Source: Escherichia coli O157:H7
Lineage (GTDB): Bacteria; Pseudomonadota; Gammaproteobacteria; Enterobacterales; Enterobacteriaceae
Strand: one strand, 5' to 3'
DNA: 64,000 nucleotides
Assembly: GCF_013167455.1 (NCBI RefSeq)
Contig: NZ_CP038328.1
Part shown: positions 57,001 to 63,000 of the stretch, in pieces
Position numbering within the stretch: the first letter of the stretch is position 1
Layout: every line of letters starts with the position of its first letter
Position numbers: made by a program

Positions 57001-60000
57001 TTTGGTCCTGAAAATCAGAAAGGACAGGGGGAGAATTTTCTCTCCCATTCTTCTTCCGCCCGAGCATAGGCGATCGCTGAGATATAATCGTTGTACGCCT
57101 CTTCAGCTTTTTCGCCAGTGAGTGCTAGTTGGGCTTCTTTGGGTAAAAAAAGGCTGCTCATAAGCAATGGTTTATCGGGGAACATGCTGATAAGCTCCTG
57201 CGCCCGATCATCAATCCATTTATCCTTTTCATCCTGAATTTGCTGATTAATCCAGCGACGCTCCTCTATGCGGTCGCAGGTGAGGTATGCGTTCATGGCG
57301 GAACTCCTGATTCCGGTTAATGCATTAAATTAATTTGTCGGGAAAGCTGACATACAGGGCAGTTACATTCTTCCTCCTGCTCCTTAGCGAAGAAATATGC
57401 AGCGGCCTGTAATGCGATGTCTTCTGGATGTTCCGCGATAAACATAACATTGCCTTCCGTATCAATAACAGAAATAGCCTCATCAGACAGGATGACAAAA
57501 TAGGCGATGATTTTATCATCCATAAAAACTTCTCCCATTATCGTTCCTGCTGGAGTTACGACGCTTTTTACATTGATATTTATTTTTTGATTGAGCATGA
57601 TATTTCCTTTCAGGCTGGTGAGATTAACGGTTGGCCTTTATTGTTCAGGTAAACTTCTATTGCATCTGAGATAATGCGAATTTTTTCAATCAGTGAATGT
57701 GCGTAAAGTGCATTATTAACGTTCGCTGACGCCATGTAATAACGCCCGTTGTAAAGAATTGCTGTGCCGGGTTTAACGTCCTCGCGAGAAACTAATGCGG
57801 TTCCGTAGTGAGGTTTGAGCATGACAAATCCTCCGGTTAATTAATCCAGATATTTTATTTAATCCCCGATATGTGATCGGGGATGGGGTTAATTAAAGAT
57901 TAACGTTGAAACCAAAGCGGGAAGATTTTTCCGATGTGCGGGAAATATCCAGCAATTTACGGCGCATTTCTTCCGTCAGATGCTTGAAGGCGTTAAATTC
58001 GGCGACAGCTGCATCGACGTTATAGCCGTTACGACGTAATTCATTAAATATGCGCATTGCAGGGCTTGGCATGTCGAATAAGACGGAGGTATCAAGCTGC
58101 AATGTATTTCTATCAACATAGTTCATCGTGGCATAGGGGTGATGCTCTGAAAACCACGATAAAGGGAAATTGATATTCATCGCAGGAGAAGACAGGGCCA
58201 GTTGTTTCTGTTCCCATAGTTGTTTTTCCATGCGATCGAATTCAGCAATGTAGGCTTCCTTGAATGCAGCTGCTTTTTTGCCGGTGAAGCCCATCACCAG
58301 AAAAACGAATCCGTTTTTGGTGATTTGGTACATTGGGCGTTGTTCGCCTTTGGCGTCGGTGTAGGTAACGTCCGCAAAATTGCGGGCGTTAAATTCCGTA
58401 GAACAATCCATCAATCGGATTTTTTTTAAAACGTCGTCGTGCCGCTTGTCAAAAAATTCAGCAATAGCAATAGACGTTGTGACAACGCGACCATTGGTAA
58501 TGGTGATTTCAGGTTGAGAAAGGGCAGGGATAGTAGCCATAATGGCAGCCTCCTTGATTGGTGATTGAGAACCACCGCAGGAGGTCCTAAGCTCGCTGGC
58601 GGTGGACTGTACAGGGTTAGGACTACTGGCAATCAAGGGAACCAGCCCGACCGAAGTCGGCCCCATACAGCCCACCATTGATAAGATGTGCGTGTATATC
58701 GATACAAAAAAAGACGCTGGCGCGTCTGTATCGCCTCGATTGTCAGCGGGGTCCTAATCCCGACACCCGTTTTATAAGGTGTTCGCCAAATATAGCCCCC
58801 GACATCACACGCAGTCAATACCGTCCTTTCTCAGAAACGCTTTGGCGGTGCCGCCTGCACCCCAAAACATTCCCTGTATTGGTCAGCGCCAACTTCCTGC
58901 CAGTGTTGCCCGTTCTCACGCCGTTCTCGCTCTCGCGCGGGGATACTCTCTCATCGACCGGATCGCACCCGATGATACAGCACGTTTACGTGTAGGGGTC
59001 TAAACAGGTCATTGACGCTGTAAAGCTCCAGGTTGTTAAAGAGCATTTTGCGGCGGGTTAAGTCGCGCCGTACGACTGATTTATGTAGCCCTGTGTAAGG
59101 GCGCGATGTTTCTGGCTTGAAAGAAATATAACTTGCGGTGATTTTTATGTAAATACCGTTAGTGGTTATTGGGGGTGAAAAAATATTACTTAACTGATTT
59201 TTAAAGTGATTTATTTTTTAAGGGGACAGATAACAGGAGGGGATATGCAAAGAAAAACCCGGCGCATGGGCCGGGCTATTTATCTGGTCCTGTTCTCATT
59301 CAGTAGAGTAGGGGCCAAGAAATCGCACTCCGTTGAAGTGAATAAGATGAGAAGGTGCATCAGCCACCCATACCTCTGTTTCCCATGCGATTTCACCAAG
59401 ATATCGCCCCATGATGGAGCGATTTGGAAAAGCGGTCACATAGACAAGTCCGGCTGTTGATCCGGCAAACAGCCTGGCAAGCTCAGCATGCCGCTTCCCA
59501 TCAACCGGTCCATGACTGGTGACAGACTCAACCAGTAGCAGCCAGTTTTTCGCAGTAAAATGTAGCACCACATCTGGCATTTTACCGTGTGAATCCACAT
59601 CAACACCTAGCCCGGCCAGCAGTGGAGCGTCGAAGTAGCCCCACTTTTCGCCAGTGTCGCCAGCATAGACCAGCACGCTACCCGGAGCAAAACGTGGGGC
59701 GAAGTCCTCTATTATGGCACGGATAAGTTCGCTGTGCTCGCCGGGACTGAGGGTTATTTGCTGGCCCGCAGCAATTTCAACAGGGATACGATTCTGTTCG
59801 CGCTCCTTAGCATAGCGGGTAACCAGCGTTTCACGCTCGGCTAAATAGGTTGCAAGGCTATCGTGCCATGCCGGGCTGCCGAAAGTGCGTAGCATGGACA
59901 GAGCAGCAGGTTCGATCTGATAAACAGCCTTCGGGCTGTTCACTGGGCGATCGGGCTTGTCCGGATTGTAGAGGGCTACTCCAGCAGCGCAGAACTGATG

Positions 60001-63000
60001 CATAGACTGGCGGCGGAATGTCTCACGAGTATTGGGTGCGTAGACCTTGCCGTAGTGCTCCCGAACCCAATTCATGATTGGTGTAATGCCCACAAGCGGA
60101 TTTTCCGCGTCGGCCCATGCTTTTCCCGGTGTGAGGTTCAGGAGTGCCAGCAAACACAAAGCAGAACGCTCATTCTGCTGCGCTCTGGGCAGGCCTAAGG
60201 ATGCTATAATTTGCTGAGCGGCCTCAATATAATCATTTTGGTTGTTCATGCAGTCAGAGCTCCTAGCTTAGCGTCAATATGTTCTTGCGTGAGAGTTTCT
60301 TGTTGCATAGCCCACTTGCCAAGCTCTATCAGAGTGTCACGGCTTGGGTACTTAATCATCTTGAGGTCGGTTGCATTGACCTGTGTATGCCCGTTGAAGC
60401 GACGGAAGTACTTATCCACTGCGGTAGTGTTCAGGAACACGGCCAAGCCACGGGCCAGCGCCTCGGGTAACCCATGTTTGTTCTCATGAAACACGTTCAT
60501 GTGATTTTCAAATCCCAACACTGAATACTCACTGAAGGTAGCAGGATCAACGACGCTTGCTACCACTCGGCGCTTTTCCTCCTTCGACGAGAAACGACGC
60601 ACCACACAATAAAAACCGTTCGGGTAAAGCCACTTTTCTGTCTCGTCGTTGCGCATGATTGCGTTGGGTTTCTTCAAACCTTCCACAGGCCAGACAGTGC
60701 TACTCATACTCAAATGGCTCGGGTAGATCAGGGGAACAGTTCCTTCTTCTGGCATGCTGCGCAAATGAGCTTTCAGTCGGAAATCAACTATCGGTCCGGT
60801 CGATACCTTCACGCCAATATCAGCCAGCGAACATTGTACGGCAGATGATAACTCAATGGTGCTTTTCTCGAGCGTGGTCGGCACATGAATAAACCGCTCC
60901 GAATCGTCCGGGTACACAATCTGGTCAAATGGGTGTTCGTAGGTGACCAGGTCAAAAAAGCTATCATCGGTCGAAGTTGTGACTGTAACAGCCTCCTGAC
61001 GGCCTCCACGCTCCAGGCGGATGATAATATTTTCCTGCAACACATCGTCATCCCTGAAAGCTTTGCTACGTGATTCGAACAAATGAATATGGCGGATTGC
61101 TGCCCGCTCAAGTATGAAATTACGGAACGGACGGTAATACGGTCCGTTGCAGAAACTACGTGGGATTATGGCCACTATCTGCCCGCCAGGTGCAACCTCA
61201 CCTACAGCCAGTGCAACAAAGGCGGAATACAGATTTACCGTCTCGATACCGACAGTGCGAAGAGCCTGCCGGTGGGCTGACTGGCTATTGATCTTCTTGT
61301 AAGGCGGATTAAGTATTGCATGGGTATAACCTCGATCCTGTAGACCTTCGGCGGTTGCCAGCTCAATATAATCCCCTTCGATGATGCGGGGCGTCACTCT
61401 CCTGTACCCGGTTAAGTGCTTCGCAAGGTGACCACACAGCTTTTTGTCGATTTCGTAGGCTGTTGCCTCGACAGACTCAAAGCCAAACTCGCCAACCAGC
61501 CAACGGTCGAGGAAGGCGCAAGACAGTGCGCCTAAACCAGCGCCTGCGTCCAGTAGACGGCAAGTTTTCATTGTGCTCGGTGGAAACAAGGAGGCCATAA
61601 AACGGGCCACGCCAGAAGGCGTCATGAACTGGCCGAACTCTGCTTTGTGTTTACGCGCGGTACGGGGAGACAGCTCGCGACGCACGCTGTCTGCGACGTC
61701 TAGCTTTTGAAGCATAACTAATCCTCTTTACGTGGCATGATGATGCCAACGTGCTTTTGACATCCTCCACATTCTTCAGGCGTGAAGGATGTCAAATCAC
61801 TCTGTGAGCTCAATCAAAAGTCTCATCATTCCACTGCGATTTGATGACCTTTCCGACAAACTGGCAGTTTTCGTTACACTCAATCATGTCGAATCGTGGG
61901 TTGAGCGGCTCCAGGTACGCTTTACCGCTCTCACGAATGAATCGTTTGAAGGTAAATTCATCGCCGTTCATTCGGGCCACGCAAAAATCGCCATCCTCGA
62001 TTTCCCGTTCAGGGTCAACGAGTATCAGCATACCTTCAGGGAAGCTGGGTTTACCACCCTGCGGTGCGGTCATTGAATGCCCCTTGACCTCCAGCCAGAA
62101 CGACCTGTCACTGGCTTTTGTGGTGGTGGAGATCCATTTAATCGCATCTTTTGCGGTGTACGAAATATCATCCATTGAGAATGCGCCAGCTTGTACGCAG
62201 GAGAGTAACGGATATTCGTAAGCGGGGACACGAGTTAATGGCTCTTCAATTGCGAGCGCCATTTCTGCAATAGATTTTGCCAGGCTGGGACTGAAATCTC
62301 CGACCTTTACATTCAGTATCTTAGCAAGCTGTGCTGCGTGGCTGGCATTTATGGCGTTGATGCCAGCCATTAGCTGATTAACAGCGCTTTGGGTAACACC
62401 TAATTCATAGGCTAATGATTCCTGCGACAGGCCTAACTCTTTCTTTTTAGCGTTAAAAATACTTTTCAGACGCTTGGCGTCTTCCAGTTGCTCAGGGGTT
62501 AACGGTTTCTTTTTCATGTTCATACCATATCACCTTTGGTTATATGTAATGAAATATCTGCGGTGTTGACATTTTAATAACTGTGCGTAATGATATGGGC
62601 ATTTTGAAGGAGTCAGTTATGGCGATGAAAAAAGAGACCCTGGCTGATTACGTATACAGGTTCGGCCAAAAGAAAGCCGCTAAGGACTTTGGCGTGGCGC
62701 AGAGTGCAATCAGTAAAGCGCTTCTCGTCGGACGAGAAATATACGTCAAAACCTTTGATGACGGCACAGTTGAGGCGGAAGAGGTTCGTCCGTTCCCTGC
62801 GTTCGTAAGAGGCGATGATTAATCCTGGACACACAGCCCATCGGAGGTGTGAGTGAACAGGCAAATCAAAACGGTTATGCCCGAGCAGTACTGTGATGCT
62901 GATCGGGACTGGATACAGGAGCAATTGTTACAGCTAGACCCGACCACCCGGGTAAAAATTGCAGCAGAGTACGCGAGAGTGTACCAGGAAGAGTGGGACA

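What the first reader, a model, noticed from the sequence alone, without database searches (positions are those of the whole stretch)
59296..61715. PstI/BsuBI-like type II restriction-modification pair in the rexAB position of the prophage immunity region
A gamma-class N6-adenine methyltransferase (AdoMet motif then NPPY) is co-oriented with cI and overlaps by 4 bp a downstream 317-aa ORF that I recall as a BsuBI/PstI-type endonuclease. The pair sits where lambda carries rexAB, so it would be expressed from the lysogen and protect it.
Basis: partly seen in the sequence, partly recalled or inferred. Interest (0 to 1): 0.65.

Follow-up and report, generated by a model that had tools for sequence, protein, structure and literature searches.

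The report
Known PstI-like restriction system, Stx2 prophage

Summary
A 489-aa methyltransferase gene (60246..61715, minus strand) overlaps a 317-aa endonuclease gene (59296..60249, minus strand) by 4 bp, and both lie downstream of a co-oriented cI.

The endonuclease carries both BsuBI/PstI Pfam domains (E 1e-54 and 6e-61) and matches the SdaI crystal structure sequence (E 1e-77). The methyltransferase shows the gamma-class motif order. Both proteins are 100% identical to ORF31 and ORF30 of phage P13374, the Stx2a phage of the 2011 E. coli O104:H4 outbreak.

Papers citing Fang et al. 2012 name this pair the EcoGIII R-M system. They report m6A at CTGCAG, a biochemically active endonuclease, complete site methylation in lysogens, protection against lambda-like phages, and about 1,950 genes changing expression on deletion.

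The "rexAB position" claim also holds. The pair sits between cI and a terminator followed by a PL-like promoter, and an operator-like 15-mer occurs on both flanks.

Additional details found here:
- The cassette spans about 2.47 kb (61756..59288) and also occurs on plasmids.
- It fills a slot bounded by a hairpin and a terminator; one related prophage carries a different gene there and five carry only an endonuclease remnant.

Verdict: already known, low interest.

The parts
60246..61715 (-). Methyltransferase gene (M.EcoGIII; 489 aa; gamma-class N6-adenine methyltransferase reported to target CTGCAG)
   Evidence: ORF. Pfam Eco57I methylase domain at E 5e-9. PADLOC MTase_II PDLC03227 at E 5e-248, full length. 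Motifs GQFMTP 28-33, DAGAGLG 56-62 and NPPY 136-139. 100% identical to P13374 ORF31. Specificity comes from the literature.
59296..60249 (-). Restriction endonuclease gene (R.EcoGIII; 317 aa; N-terminal BsuBI/PstI HTH domain and C-terminal nuclease domain)
   Evidence: ORF. Pfam PF17728 at 1.6e-54 and PF06616 at 6.1e-61. SdaI 2ixs at E 1.2e-77. Family-invariant P225, D226, E241 and R253 are present. 100% identical to P13374 ORF30.
60246..60249 (-). 4-bp ATGA overlap between the M stop codon and the R start codon, preceded by an AGGAG Shine-Dalgarno-like sequence inside the 3' end of M. Translational coupling is inferred.
   Evidence: The same overlap occurs in the plasmid copies L003 and L004.
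59288..61756 (-). Extent of the mobile M-R cassette: the block homologous (84% nt) to the copy on E. coli plasmid pG5A4Y413
   Evidence: blastn of the window against L003.
61716..61756 (-). 41 bp upstream of M, homologous to the 3' end of the resolvase gene that precedes M on pG5A4Y413. It is a remnant reading ..KHVGIIMPRKED* and contains the small hairpin 61733-61748 and the M ribosome-binding site AGAGGA.
61756..61796 (-). Large hairpin (15-nt arms in the repeat scan, 16 pairs in the RNA fold; 11-nt spacer between the arms) in the cI-M spacer. It marks the cI-side boundary of the cargo slot.
   Evidence: Inverted repeat I11, 93% complementary. RNA fold of the spacer: z = -3.57, 0 of 200 shuffles as stable. 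Homology to relatives with other cargo ends here.
61810..62523 (-). cI repressor (237 aa; HTH plus a LexA/UmuD-like self-cleavage domain)
   Evidence: NCBIfam LexA-like at 5.5e-11. phrog_4 transcriptional repressor at 1.6e-60. Annotated as cI in P13374.
59256..59277 (-). Intrinsic-terminator-like hairpin plus T-run, starting 18 nt after the R stop codon. It is the presumed end of the cI-M-R transcript and the PL-side boundary of the slot.
   Evidence: 8 pairs, 6 G-C, tail TTTCTTTGCA. Fold at -17.7 kcal/mol, z = -2.2. Conserved in L005 downstream of a different cargo gene.
59125..59153 (-). PL-like sigma-70 promoter (TTTACA-17-TATATT) pointing away from the R-M pair
   Evidence: 10 of 12 matches.
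59128..59142 (.). Operator-like palindrome ATCACCGCAAGTTAT lying between the PL hexamers (OL candidate)
62529..62543 (.). Operator-like palindrome ATCACCTTTGGTTAT in the cI/cro spacer (OR candidate)
62577..62591 (.). Second OR candidate (ATAACTGTGCGTAAT, 2 mismatches to the degenerate palindrome) lying between the PR hexamers
62566..62594 (+). PR-like promoter (TTGACA-17-AATGAT) driving cro
62619..62822 (+). cro-like gene
   Evidence: phrog_35 at 2.2e-15. Annotated as Cro/CI family in L002 and as cro in P13374.

Best explanation
The two genes are the EcoGIII Type IIP restriction-modification system, a PstI/BsuBI isoschizomer that recognises CTGCAG. It is carried by an argW-integrated Stx2a-converting prophage of the P13374 / TL-2011c / 'PST2' type (genus Oslovirus).

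How it works. The methyltransferase puts N6-methyl on the adenine of CTGCAG on both strands, throughout the lysogen's DNA. The endonuclease belongs to the two-domain BsuBI/PstI family, with an N-terminal HTH domain and a C-terminal nuclease domain, and it cleaves unmethylated CTGCAG in incoming DNA. The lysogen therefore restricts unmodified phages. As a side effect, its methylome and transcriptome change.

Expression (inferred). The cassette has no recognisable promoter of its own. It lies 94 bp behind cI in the same orientation and is followed by a terminator. It is therefore most likely read as a cI-M-R operon from the lysogenic repressor promoter, as rexAB is in lambda. The ATGA overlap would couple R translation to M translation.

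Shown here: the gene structure, family membership, identity to the characterised proteins, and position between cI and OL/PL.

Shown in the literature for identical or near-identical proteins: CTGCAG m6A, endonuclease activity, phage protection, and the transcriptome effect.

Inferred only: co-transcription from PRM, translational coupling, and terminator function.
For: Family assignment. The endonuclease has both BsuBI/PstI Pfam domains, matches SdaI 2ixs at E 1.2e-77, and keeps the family-invariant PD...E...R residues. The methyltransferase shows gamma-class motif order and an Eco57I-type methylase domain. Full-length PADLOC MTase_II and REase_II models match both proteins.

Identity to the characterised system. 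Both proteins are 100% identical to P13374 ORF31 and ORF30, and the endonuclease is 316/317 identical to a C227-11 draft entry. Depositors annotate the pair as BsuBI methylase and endonuclease, and PGAP calls the endonuclease 'BsuBI/PstI family type II restriction endonuclease'.

Literature.
- PMC3893438: M.EcoGIII cloned from C227-11 methylates the A of CTGCAG. The R enzyme was biochemically active. 98.8% of CTGCAG sites were methylated in RM13514, against 0% in RM13516, which lacks the cassette.
- PMC6602927: 2390/2390 and 2434/2434 CTGCAG sites methylated in two lysogens. It cites Fang et al. 2012 for restriction of lambda-like phages and for 1,951 affected genes.
- PMC4659465 repeats the transcriptome result.
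- PMC4587872 reports the bsuBI R/M in argW PST2 phages of O157:H7.

Position. A terminator and a PL-like promoter lie downstream, and an operator motif occurs on both flanks. No promoter-like or terminator-like site was found on the coding strand in the cI-M spacer. In the plasmid copies, M likewise starts 9 and 14 bp after the preceding gene.
Against: The primary paper (Fang et al. 2012, Nat Biotechnol 30:1232) is not held. The experimental claims therefore rest on secondary citations.

Co-transcription with cI is not demonstrated. A stable hairpin (61756-61796; z = -3.6) sits between cI and M and could attenuate or process the transcript. A weak promoter-like site lies inside M (61051-61024, 9 of 12 matches).

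NCBIfam has no specific model for either protein.

SdaI K251 aligns with T244 in this protein. Threonine is the family majority at that position (43 of 70), so this is not evidence of inactivity.
Confidence: 0.93

Rival explanations
1. The pair is a functional R-M system, but its main selected role is not anti-phage defence. Instead it stabilises the prophage (post-segregational killing if the prophage is lost), reprogrammes host gene expression through CTGCAG methylation, or both.
For: Deletion of the system changed expression of 1,951 genes and influenced growth (PMC6602927; PMC4659465). The same cassette sits directly behind plasmid maintenance genes, a resolvase in L003 and parA/parG plus a hypothetical gene in L004, which fits a stabilising role. 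Addiction behaviour is well established for other Type II R-M systems (general knowledge).
Against: Protection against lambda-like phages is reported for this system. Five E. coli genomes carry a decayed version with only an R remnant and no M, so loss of the system is survivable. These roles are not mutually exclusive with defence.
Confidence: 0.25
2. The R-M genes are expressed from their own promoter or regulatory element, for example involving the 61756-61796 hairpin/palindrome, rather than as part of the cI operon. In that case the resemblance to rexAB is positional only.
For: A 15-nt-arm palindrome lies between cI and M. It contains TTGACA-like sequence and could be a protein-binding site. 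Many Type II systems have dedicated control elements (general knowledge).
Against: No sigma-70-like promoter was found on the minus strand between 61716 and 61810. No controller (C) protein gene is present. The hairpin belongs to the phage backbone rather than the cassette, because it is retained in relatives with other cargo. The plasmid copies also lack room for a promoter, with only 9 and 14 bp between M and the preceding gene.
Confidence: 0.15
3. The endonuclease is inactive in this particular prophage, leaving an effectively orphan methyltransferase.
For: SdaI K251 aligns with a threonine. Decayed versions exist in other genomes.
Against: The protein is 100% identical to that of P13374. 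The R enzyme of C227-11 is reported as biochemically active. Threonine at that position is the family norm, and all invariant residues are intact.
Confidence: 0.03

Closest known systems
EcoGIII R-M system (M.EcoGIII / R.EcoGIII) of the Stx2a prophage of E. coli O104:H4 C227-11 / phage P13374
   Same: The proteins are identical to those of P13374. The gene order cI-M-R is the same. The recognition sequence CTGCAG and the m6A modification are as reported.
   Different: Only the carrier differs. Here the prophage is integrated at tRNA-Arg(CCT) (argW) in an O157:H7-like chromosome, not at wrbA. The region between the PL leader and the anti-repressor genes is about 0.9 kb shorter than in P13374.
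PstI (Providencia stuartii) and BsuBI (Bacillus subtilis) Type IIP R-M systems
   Same: The endonuclease shares the same Pfam families (PF17728 and PF06616). The target, CTGCAG, is the same according to the literature. The methyltransferase is annotated by depositors as 'modification methylase BsuBI'.
   Different: This system is phage-borne and sits in the immunity region. I did not align it directly with the PstI or BsuBI sequences. From memory only (unverified), the PstI genes are divergently arranged, whereas here M and R are tandem with a 4-bp overlap.
SdaI restriction endonuclease (PDB 2ixs; CCTGCAGG)
   Same: Homologous over the whole length (E 1.2e-77, residues 8-315), with the same two-domain layout.
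   Different: SdaI is described as an 8-bp cutter, from my own knowledge of the SdaI structure paper (cited in PMC3424549). SdaI has K at the position where this enzyme and most of the family have T.
Lambda rexAB, and other cargo found downstream of cI such as BstA of phage BTP1
   Same: All occupy the same slot between the repressor gene and PL/N, co-oriented with cI and expressed in the lysogen to exclude other phages. PMC8585504 describes this region as a known hotspot of mosaic diversity that harbours rexAB in lambda.
   Different: There is no sequence or mechanistic relationship. RexAB and BstA act by abortive infection, whereas this is a classical restriction-modification system.
Plasmid-borne copies of the same cassette (for example E. 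coli pG5A4Y413 and a Sulfuriferula sp. AH1 plasmid)
   Same: The M-then-R order and the 4-bp overlap are the same. M is 87% and 80% identical, and R is 94% and 89% identical.
   Different: On the plasmids the cassette sits directly behind a resolvase gene or partition genes rather than behind cI.

Membership tests
BsuBI/PstI family Type IIP restriction endonuclease | N-terminal BsuBI/PstI HTH domain (PF17728) plus C-terminal BsuBI/PstI nuclease domain (PF06616) | tested here: met
   E 1.6e-54 (residues 7-143) and E 6.1e-61 (residues 155-307). SdaI 2ixs at E 1.2e-77.
BsuBI/PstI family Type IIP restriction endonuclease | Conserved nuclease-core residues (the PD ... E ... motif of the PD-(D/E)XK-type fold) | tested here: met
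   in an alignment of the query with 69 near-full-length representatives clustered at 50% identity, P225 and D226 are present in 69/70, E241 in 69/70 and R253 in 70/70. The query has all of them. T244 is the majority residue (43/70) where SdaI has K251.
BsuBI/PstI family Type IIP restriction endonuclease | Cleavage of unmethylated CTGCAG | not testable with these tools
   Reported for the R enzyme of C227-11 ('biochemically active', PMC3893438). The protein here is 100% identical to that of outbreak phage P13374.
Gamma-class N6-adenine DNA methyltransferase (PstI/BsuBI-type M) | Linear motif order: AdoMet-binding motifs (X, I) first, then catalytic motif IV (NPPY), then the target-recognition region at the C-terminus | tested here: met
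   GQFMTP 28-33, DAGAGLG 56-62, NPPY 136-139, followed by about 350 further residues. Eco57I-type methylase domain spanning 125-220.
Gamma-class N6-adenine DNA methyltransferase (PstI/BsuBI-type M) | m6A at the adenine of CTGCAG | not testable with these tools
   The literature reports 100% of CTGCAG sites methylated in lysogens. It also reports 98.8% versus 0% with and without the cassette, and that cloned M.EcoGIII methylates CTGCAG.
Gamma-class N6-adenine DNA methyltransferase (PstI/BsuBI-type M) | Direct sequence homology to M.PstI or M.BsuBI themselves | not tested
The only support is depositors' annotation 'modification methylase BsuBI' and co-occurrence or fusion with BsuBI/PstI endonucleases.
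Lambda rexAB-type cargo of the immunity region (positional class) | Located between the repressor gene and OL/PL, co-oriented with cI | tested here: met
   gene order and strand; terminator 59277-59256, PL-like promoter 59153-59125; operator motif at 59128-59142 and 62529-62543.
Lambda rexAB-type cargo of the immunity region (positional class) | Co-transcription with cI from the lysogenic promoter | tested here: inconclusive
   No promoter-like or terminator-like site on the minus strand in the 94-bp spacer, but a stable hairpin is present. No transcript data are available. Full methylation in lysogens shows expression during lysogeny but not which promoter is used.
Lambda rexAB-type cargo of the immunity region (positional class) | Homology to RexA/RexB | tested here: not met
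   Pfam, NCBIfam, PHROGs and PADLOC return only methyltransferase and restriction-enzyme families. The analogy is positional and functional, not a family relationship.
Type IIG / Eco57I-like fused R-M enzyme (considered because of the Pfam 'Eco57I' hit) | Endonuclease and methyltransferase in a single polypeptide | tested here: not met
   There are two ORFs with a stop codon and a 4-bp overlap. Fused relatives of about 840 aa do exist (P0121: its N-terminal half is 45% identical to M and its C-terminal half 62% identical to R; PADLOC PDLC03359).

The most novel reading that the evidence does not exclude
The R-M cassette is a promoter-less passenger. In every context seen here, it is inserted a few bases behind a constitutively expressed maintenance gene of its carrier: the phage repressor, a plasmid resolvase, or plasmid partition genes.

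In Oslovirus-type Stx phages it would fill a defined, exchangeable cargo slot bounded by a conserved RNA hairpin (61756-61796) and a terminator (59277-59256). The hairpin would act as a recombination boundary, or as a processing or attenuation element that sets the ratio of cI to cargo.

Synthesis of R and M would then be tied to repressor transcription and would stop at SOS induction. The same slot carries an uncharacterised 245-aa protein (phrog_6191) in strain STEC1585, which would then be a candidate new exclusion gene.
Probability: 0.3. Interest if true: 0.3.

Novelty: already known. Interest (0 to 1): 0.1.

Why it matters
The system matters biologically. It rewrites the methylome of Shiga-toxin-producing outbreak strains, is reported to alter expression of about a third of their genes, and protects the lysogen against other phages. 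All of that was published from 2012 onwards for identical proteins.

This analysis adds only anatomical detail:
- precise cassette boundaries;
- a trace of the cassette's origin, a resolvase remnant upstream of M;
- the hairpin-and-terminator slot and its alternative cargo;
- candidate operators for a phage type whose operators were reported as unidentifiable.

These details could help annotate Stx phage immunity regions, but they do not open a new question.

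Tried and rejected
(1) Site avoidance. CTGCAG is absent from the 19.5 kb prophage part of the window (0 observed against 4.3 expected from base composition, or 6.4 from a Markov model). However, 16 of the 64 palindromic hexamers also have zero counts there. P13374 and ECP19-598 do carry sites further along the phage. I rejected this as a signal.

(2) Suspected loss of the catalytic lysine. SdaI K251 aligns with T244. Family-wide alignment shows that T is the norm, so I rejected this as a defect.

(3) Reading the primary paper. Fang et al. 2012 is not held, either by DOI or by PMC id.

(4) NCBIfam. It has no model for the endonuclease and gives only sub-threshold hits for the methyltransferase. 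The PDB sequence search for the methyltransferase found only a distant methylase-fold protein.

(5) The search for homologous proteins on the endonuclease was saturated by near-identical E. coli entries. It served only to link the gene to C227-11, and the 50%-clustered library was needed to get diversity.

(6) An intact 'empty' slot, with cI joined directly to the terminator. None was found among 5,426 E. coli genomes; only an alternative cargo and a decayed R-M turned up.

(7) The alternative cargo protein in L005 has no Pfam or PADLOC match. It matches only phrog_6191, of unknown function.

(8) Two literature searches failed on term syntax.

Full report
**Observation.** The ORF scan confirms a 489-aa ORF at 60246..61715 and a 317-aa ORF at 59296..60249. 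Both are on the minus strand and overlap by 4 bp (ATGA). They lie 94 bp downstream of a co-oriented 237-aa cI-like gene (61810..62523). That gene carries an HTH and a LexA/UmuD-type cleavage domain. A cro-like gene diverges on the other side (62619..62822).

**Endonuclease identity.** The 317-aa protein has both Pfam domains of the BsuBI/PstI family: BsuBI_PstI_RE_N at E 1.6e-54 and BsuBI_PstI_RE at E 6.1e-61. It also aligns over residues 8-315 with the crystallised SdaI endonuclease (2ixs, E 1.2e-77). One point needed checking, because SdaI K251 aligns with T244 here. I aligned the query with 69 near-full-length family representatives from the 50%-clustered library. In that alignment P225, D226 and E241 are each present in 69 of 70 sequences and R253 in all 70. 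Threonine is the majority residue at position 244 (43 of 70). The protein therefore fits the family consensus, and SdaI is the exception.

**Methyltransferase identity.** The 489-aa protein has GQFMTP at residues 28-33, DAGAGLG at 56-62 and NPPY at 136-139, followed by a long C-terminal region. This is the gamma-class order. Pfam assigns an Eco57I-type methylase domain. PADLOC and PHROGs hold dedicated full-length models for both proteins (PDLC03227 at 5e-248, PDLC03420 at 1.6e-168, phrog_1600 and phrog_1639).

**Identity with a characterised system.** The 3.9 kb locus is 99.6-100% identical to 98 phage records, most of them Stx2a-converting phages. These include P13374, phiON-2011, TL-2011c and Shigella phage Ss-VASD. 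It also matches 146 of 5,426 complete E. coli genomes. Both proteins are 100% identical to ORF31 and ORF30 of P13374, the Stx2a phage of the 2011 O104:H4 outbreak. The endonuclease is 316/317 identical to a draft C227-11 entry.

Although the primary paper (Fang et al. 2012) is not held, several papers report its results:
- M.EcoGIII cloned from C227-11 methylates the adenine of CTGCAG, and the R enzyme was biochemically active (PMC3893438).
- CTGCAG sites were methylated at 98.8% in O145 strain RM13514 and at 0% in RM13516, which lacks the cassette.
- 2390/2390 and 2434/2434 CTGCAG sites were methylated in two O111 lysogens (PMC6602927).
- The system protects against lambda-like phages, and its deletion changed expression of 1,951 genes (PMC4659465).
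- PMC4587872 describes the bsuBI R/M system in the argW-integrated 'PST2' Stx2a phages of O157:H7.

The window matches that last phage type. It has tRNA-Arg(CCT) at 44442-44516 followed by an integrase, and it shows 100% identity over 40000-52000 to O157:H7 strains.

**Position.** On the minus strand, a terminator-like hairpin with a T-run follows the R stop codon (59277-59256; -17.7 kcal/mol). A PL-like promoter comes next (TTTACA-17-TATATT, 59153-59125). The 15-mer ATCACCNNNRGTTAT occurs exactly only twice in the 64 kb window: once between the PL hexamers (59128-59142) and once in the cI/cro spacer (62529-62543). With one mismatch allowed there are 3 matches against 0.35 expected by chance, and none of 100 shuffles reached 3. 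A 2-mismatch copy of the degenerate palindrome lies between the PR hexamers (62577-62591). The pair therefore occupies the interval between cI and OL/PL, which is the position of rexAB in lambda. PMC8585504 already describes this region as a hotspot of mosaic diversity that carries rexAB in lambda and bstA in BTP1. No promoter-like or terminator-like site was found on the coding strand in the cI-M spacer. Co-transcription with cI is thus the simplest model, but it remains an inference.

**Cassette anatomy (additional findings).** The same M-then-R pair, with the same 4-bp overlap, occurs on plasmids. On E. coli pG5A4Y413, M is 87% and R 94% identical. On a Sulfuriferula plasmid, M is 80% and R 89% identical. 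In both plasmids M starts 9 or 14 bp after a resolvase or partition-region gene. DNA homology between the phage copy and pG5A4Y413 runs from window 61756 to 59288. The 41 bp upstream of M in the phage correspond to the 3' end of the plasmid's resolvase gene.

Related prophages with the same cI show the slot boundaries:
- In STEC1585 (L005), homology stops right after the large hairpin (61756-61796) and resumes at the terminator. An unrelated 245-aa gene sits in between; it matches phrog_6191 and has no Pfam or PADLOC hit.
- In strain G1/2 and four other genomes (L006 type), only a 100-aa remnant of the endonuclease gene is left and no methyltransferase gene.

Many family members in the clustered library are fusion proteins of about 840 aa. 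In P0121, the N-terminal half is 45% identical to M and the C-terminal half 62% identical to R.

**Checks that came to nothing.** The absence of CTGCAG from the prophage part of the window is not meaningful, because 16 of the 64 palindromic hexamers are also absent there. The other dead ends are listed under 'tried and rejected'.

**Verdict.** The object is the already named and experimentally characterised EcoGIII R-M system, and its location next to cI in this phage type has been published. Novelty: already known. Interest: low.

Noticed in passing
window 58595-58782 (-), with the Rha/Ant gene at 57893..58567 (-): Downstream of the PL-like promoter there is no N-like gene. Instead there are an isrK-family sRNA (58707-58782, 61.7 bits) ending in a terminator-like hairpin (58727-58712) and a C4 antisense RNA (58595-58682, 78.9 bits). 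A Rha/anti-repressor gene follows. This is a P1/P7-style c4-ant module placed under PL. The 261-aa ORF listed at 57893..58678 overlaps the C4 RNA, so its true start is probably later.
   Followed up: partly
window 61756-61796 (-): A stable hairpin (15-nt arms in the repeat scan, 16 pairs in the RNA fold) lies between cI and M. The spacer folds with z = -3.6. The hairpin is retained, with a different loop, in relatives carrying other cargo, and it marks the point where homology breaks. Its function is unknown; it could be a processing or attenuation element, or a recombination boundary.
   Followed up: partly
L005:2311-3048 (E. coli STEC1585, NZ_CP129252.1): This prophage has the same cI, hairpin, terminator and PL, but the slot holds a 245-aa protein of unknown function instead of the R-M pair. 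It matches phrog_6191 and has no Pfam or PADLOC hit. Given its position, it is a candidate lysogen-expressed exclusion gene.
   Followed up: partly
L006:2228-2746 (E. coli G1/2, NZ_CP060083.1, and four similar genomes): This is a decayed version of the slot. The methyltransferase gene is gone and only a 100-aa C-terminal remnant of the endonuclease is annotated, preceded by about 160 bp of unrelated sequence.
   Followed up: partly
window 61716-61756 (-); L003:2959-3000: The 41 bp upstream of M are homologous to the 3' end of a resolvase gene on plasmid pG5A4Y413. This suggests the phage acquired the cassette from a resolvase-M-R context. The small hairpin at 61733-61748 (TGGCATCATCATGCCA) shows paired changes in the plasmid copy (CGGCGTCATCACGCCG) that keep the stem.
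   Followed up: partly
P0121, P0124, P0125 and other proteins of about 840-880 aa: Many relatives of the endonuclease are C-terminal halves of single proteins whose N-terminal half is homologous to the methyltransferase. PADLOC (PDLC03359) and PHROGs (phrog_1639) both hold models of this fused form. I did not check whether these are true fusions or gene-calling artefacts at the 4-bp overlap.
   Followed up: partly
L002:19550 (O157:H7 ECP19-598), equivalent to window ~61774: A single-base difference (CTGAAG in the window and in P13374, CTGCAG in ECP19-598) creates the system's own recognition site in the loop of the hairpin just upstream of M. I did not determine allele frequencies or any consequence.
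   Followed up: no
window 59128-59142, 62529-62543, 62577-62591: These are candidate cI operators (degenerate palindrome ATMACYNNNRGTKAT) overlapping the PL-like and PR-like promoters. PMC4587872 states that operators could not be identified in this (PST2) phage cluster.
   Followed up: partly
window 44442-44516 (-), 43123..44316 (-), 44637..45881 (+): tRNA-Arg(CCT) (argW) has an integrase gene on each side. IntS of a P22-like element lies to the left and the Stx-phage integrase to the right, which suggests tandem integrations at one tRNA gene.
   Followed up: partly
window 46759..47385 (-): The same prophage carries a second DNA methyltransferase. It is a 208-aa protein with a DPPW motif, 100% identical to the 'MT-A70 family methyltransferase' annotated in ECP19-598.
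   Followed up: partly
window 48539-48624 (-) and 49074-49163 (-): There are two Rfam sRNA-Xcc1 matches (74.5 and 65.4 bits) about 535 bp apart, in the early-left region of the prophage among anti-repressor-like genes.
   Followed up: no
window 14529-14645 (-) and 27760-27876 (-): There are two ALIL pseudoknot matches with the same score (121.5 bits), marking the frameshift elements of IS3-family insertion sequences. The copies are 13.2 kb apart and in the same orientation, in the chromosomal part of the window.
   Followed up: no
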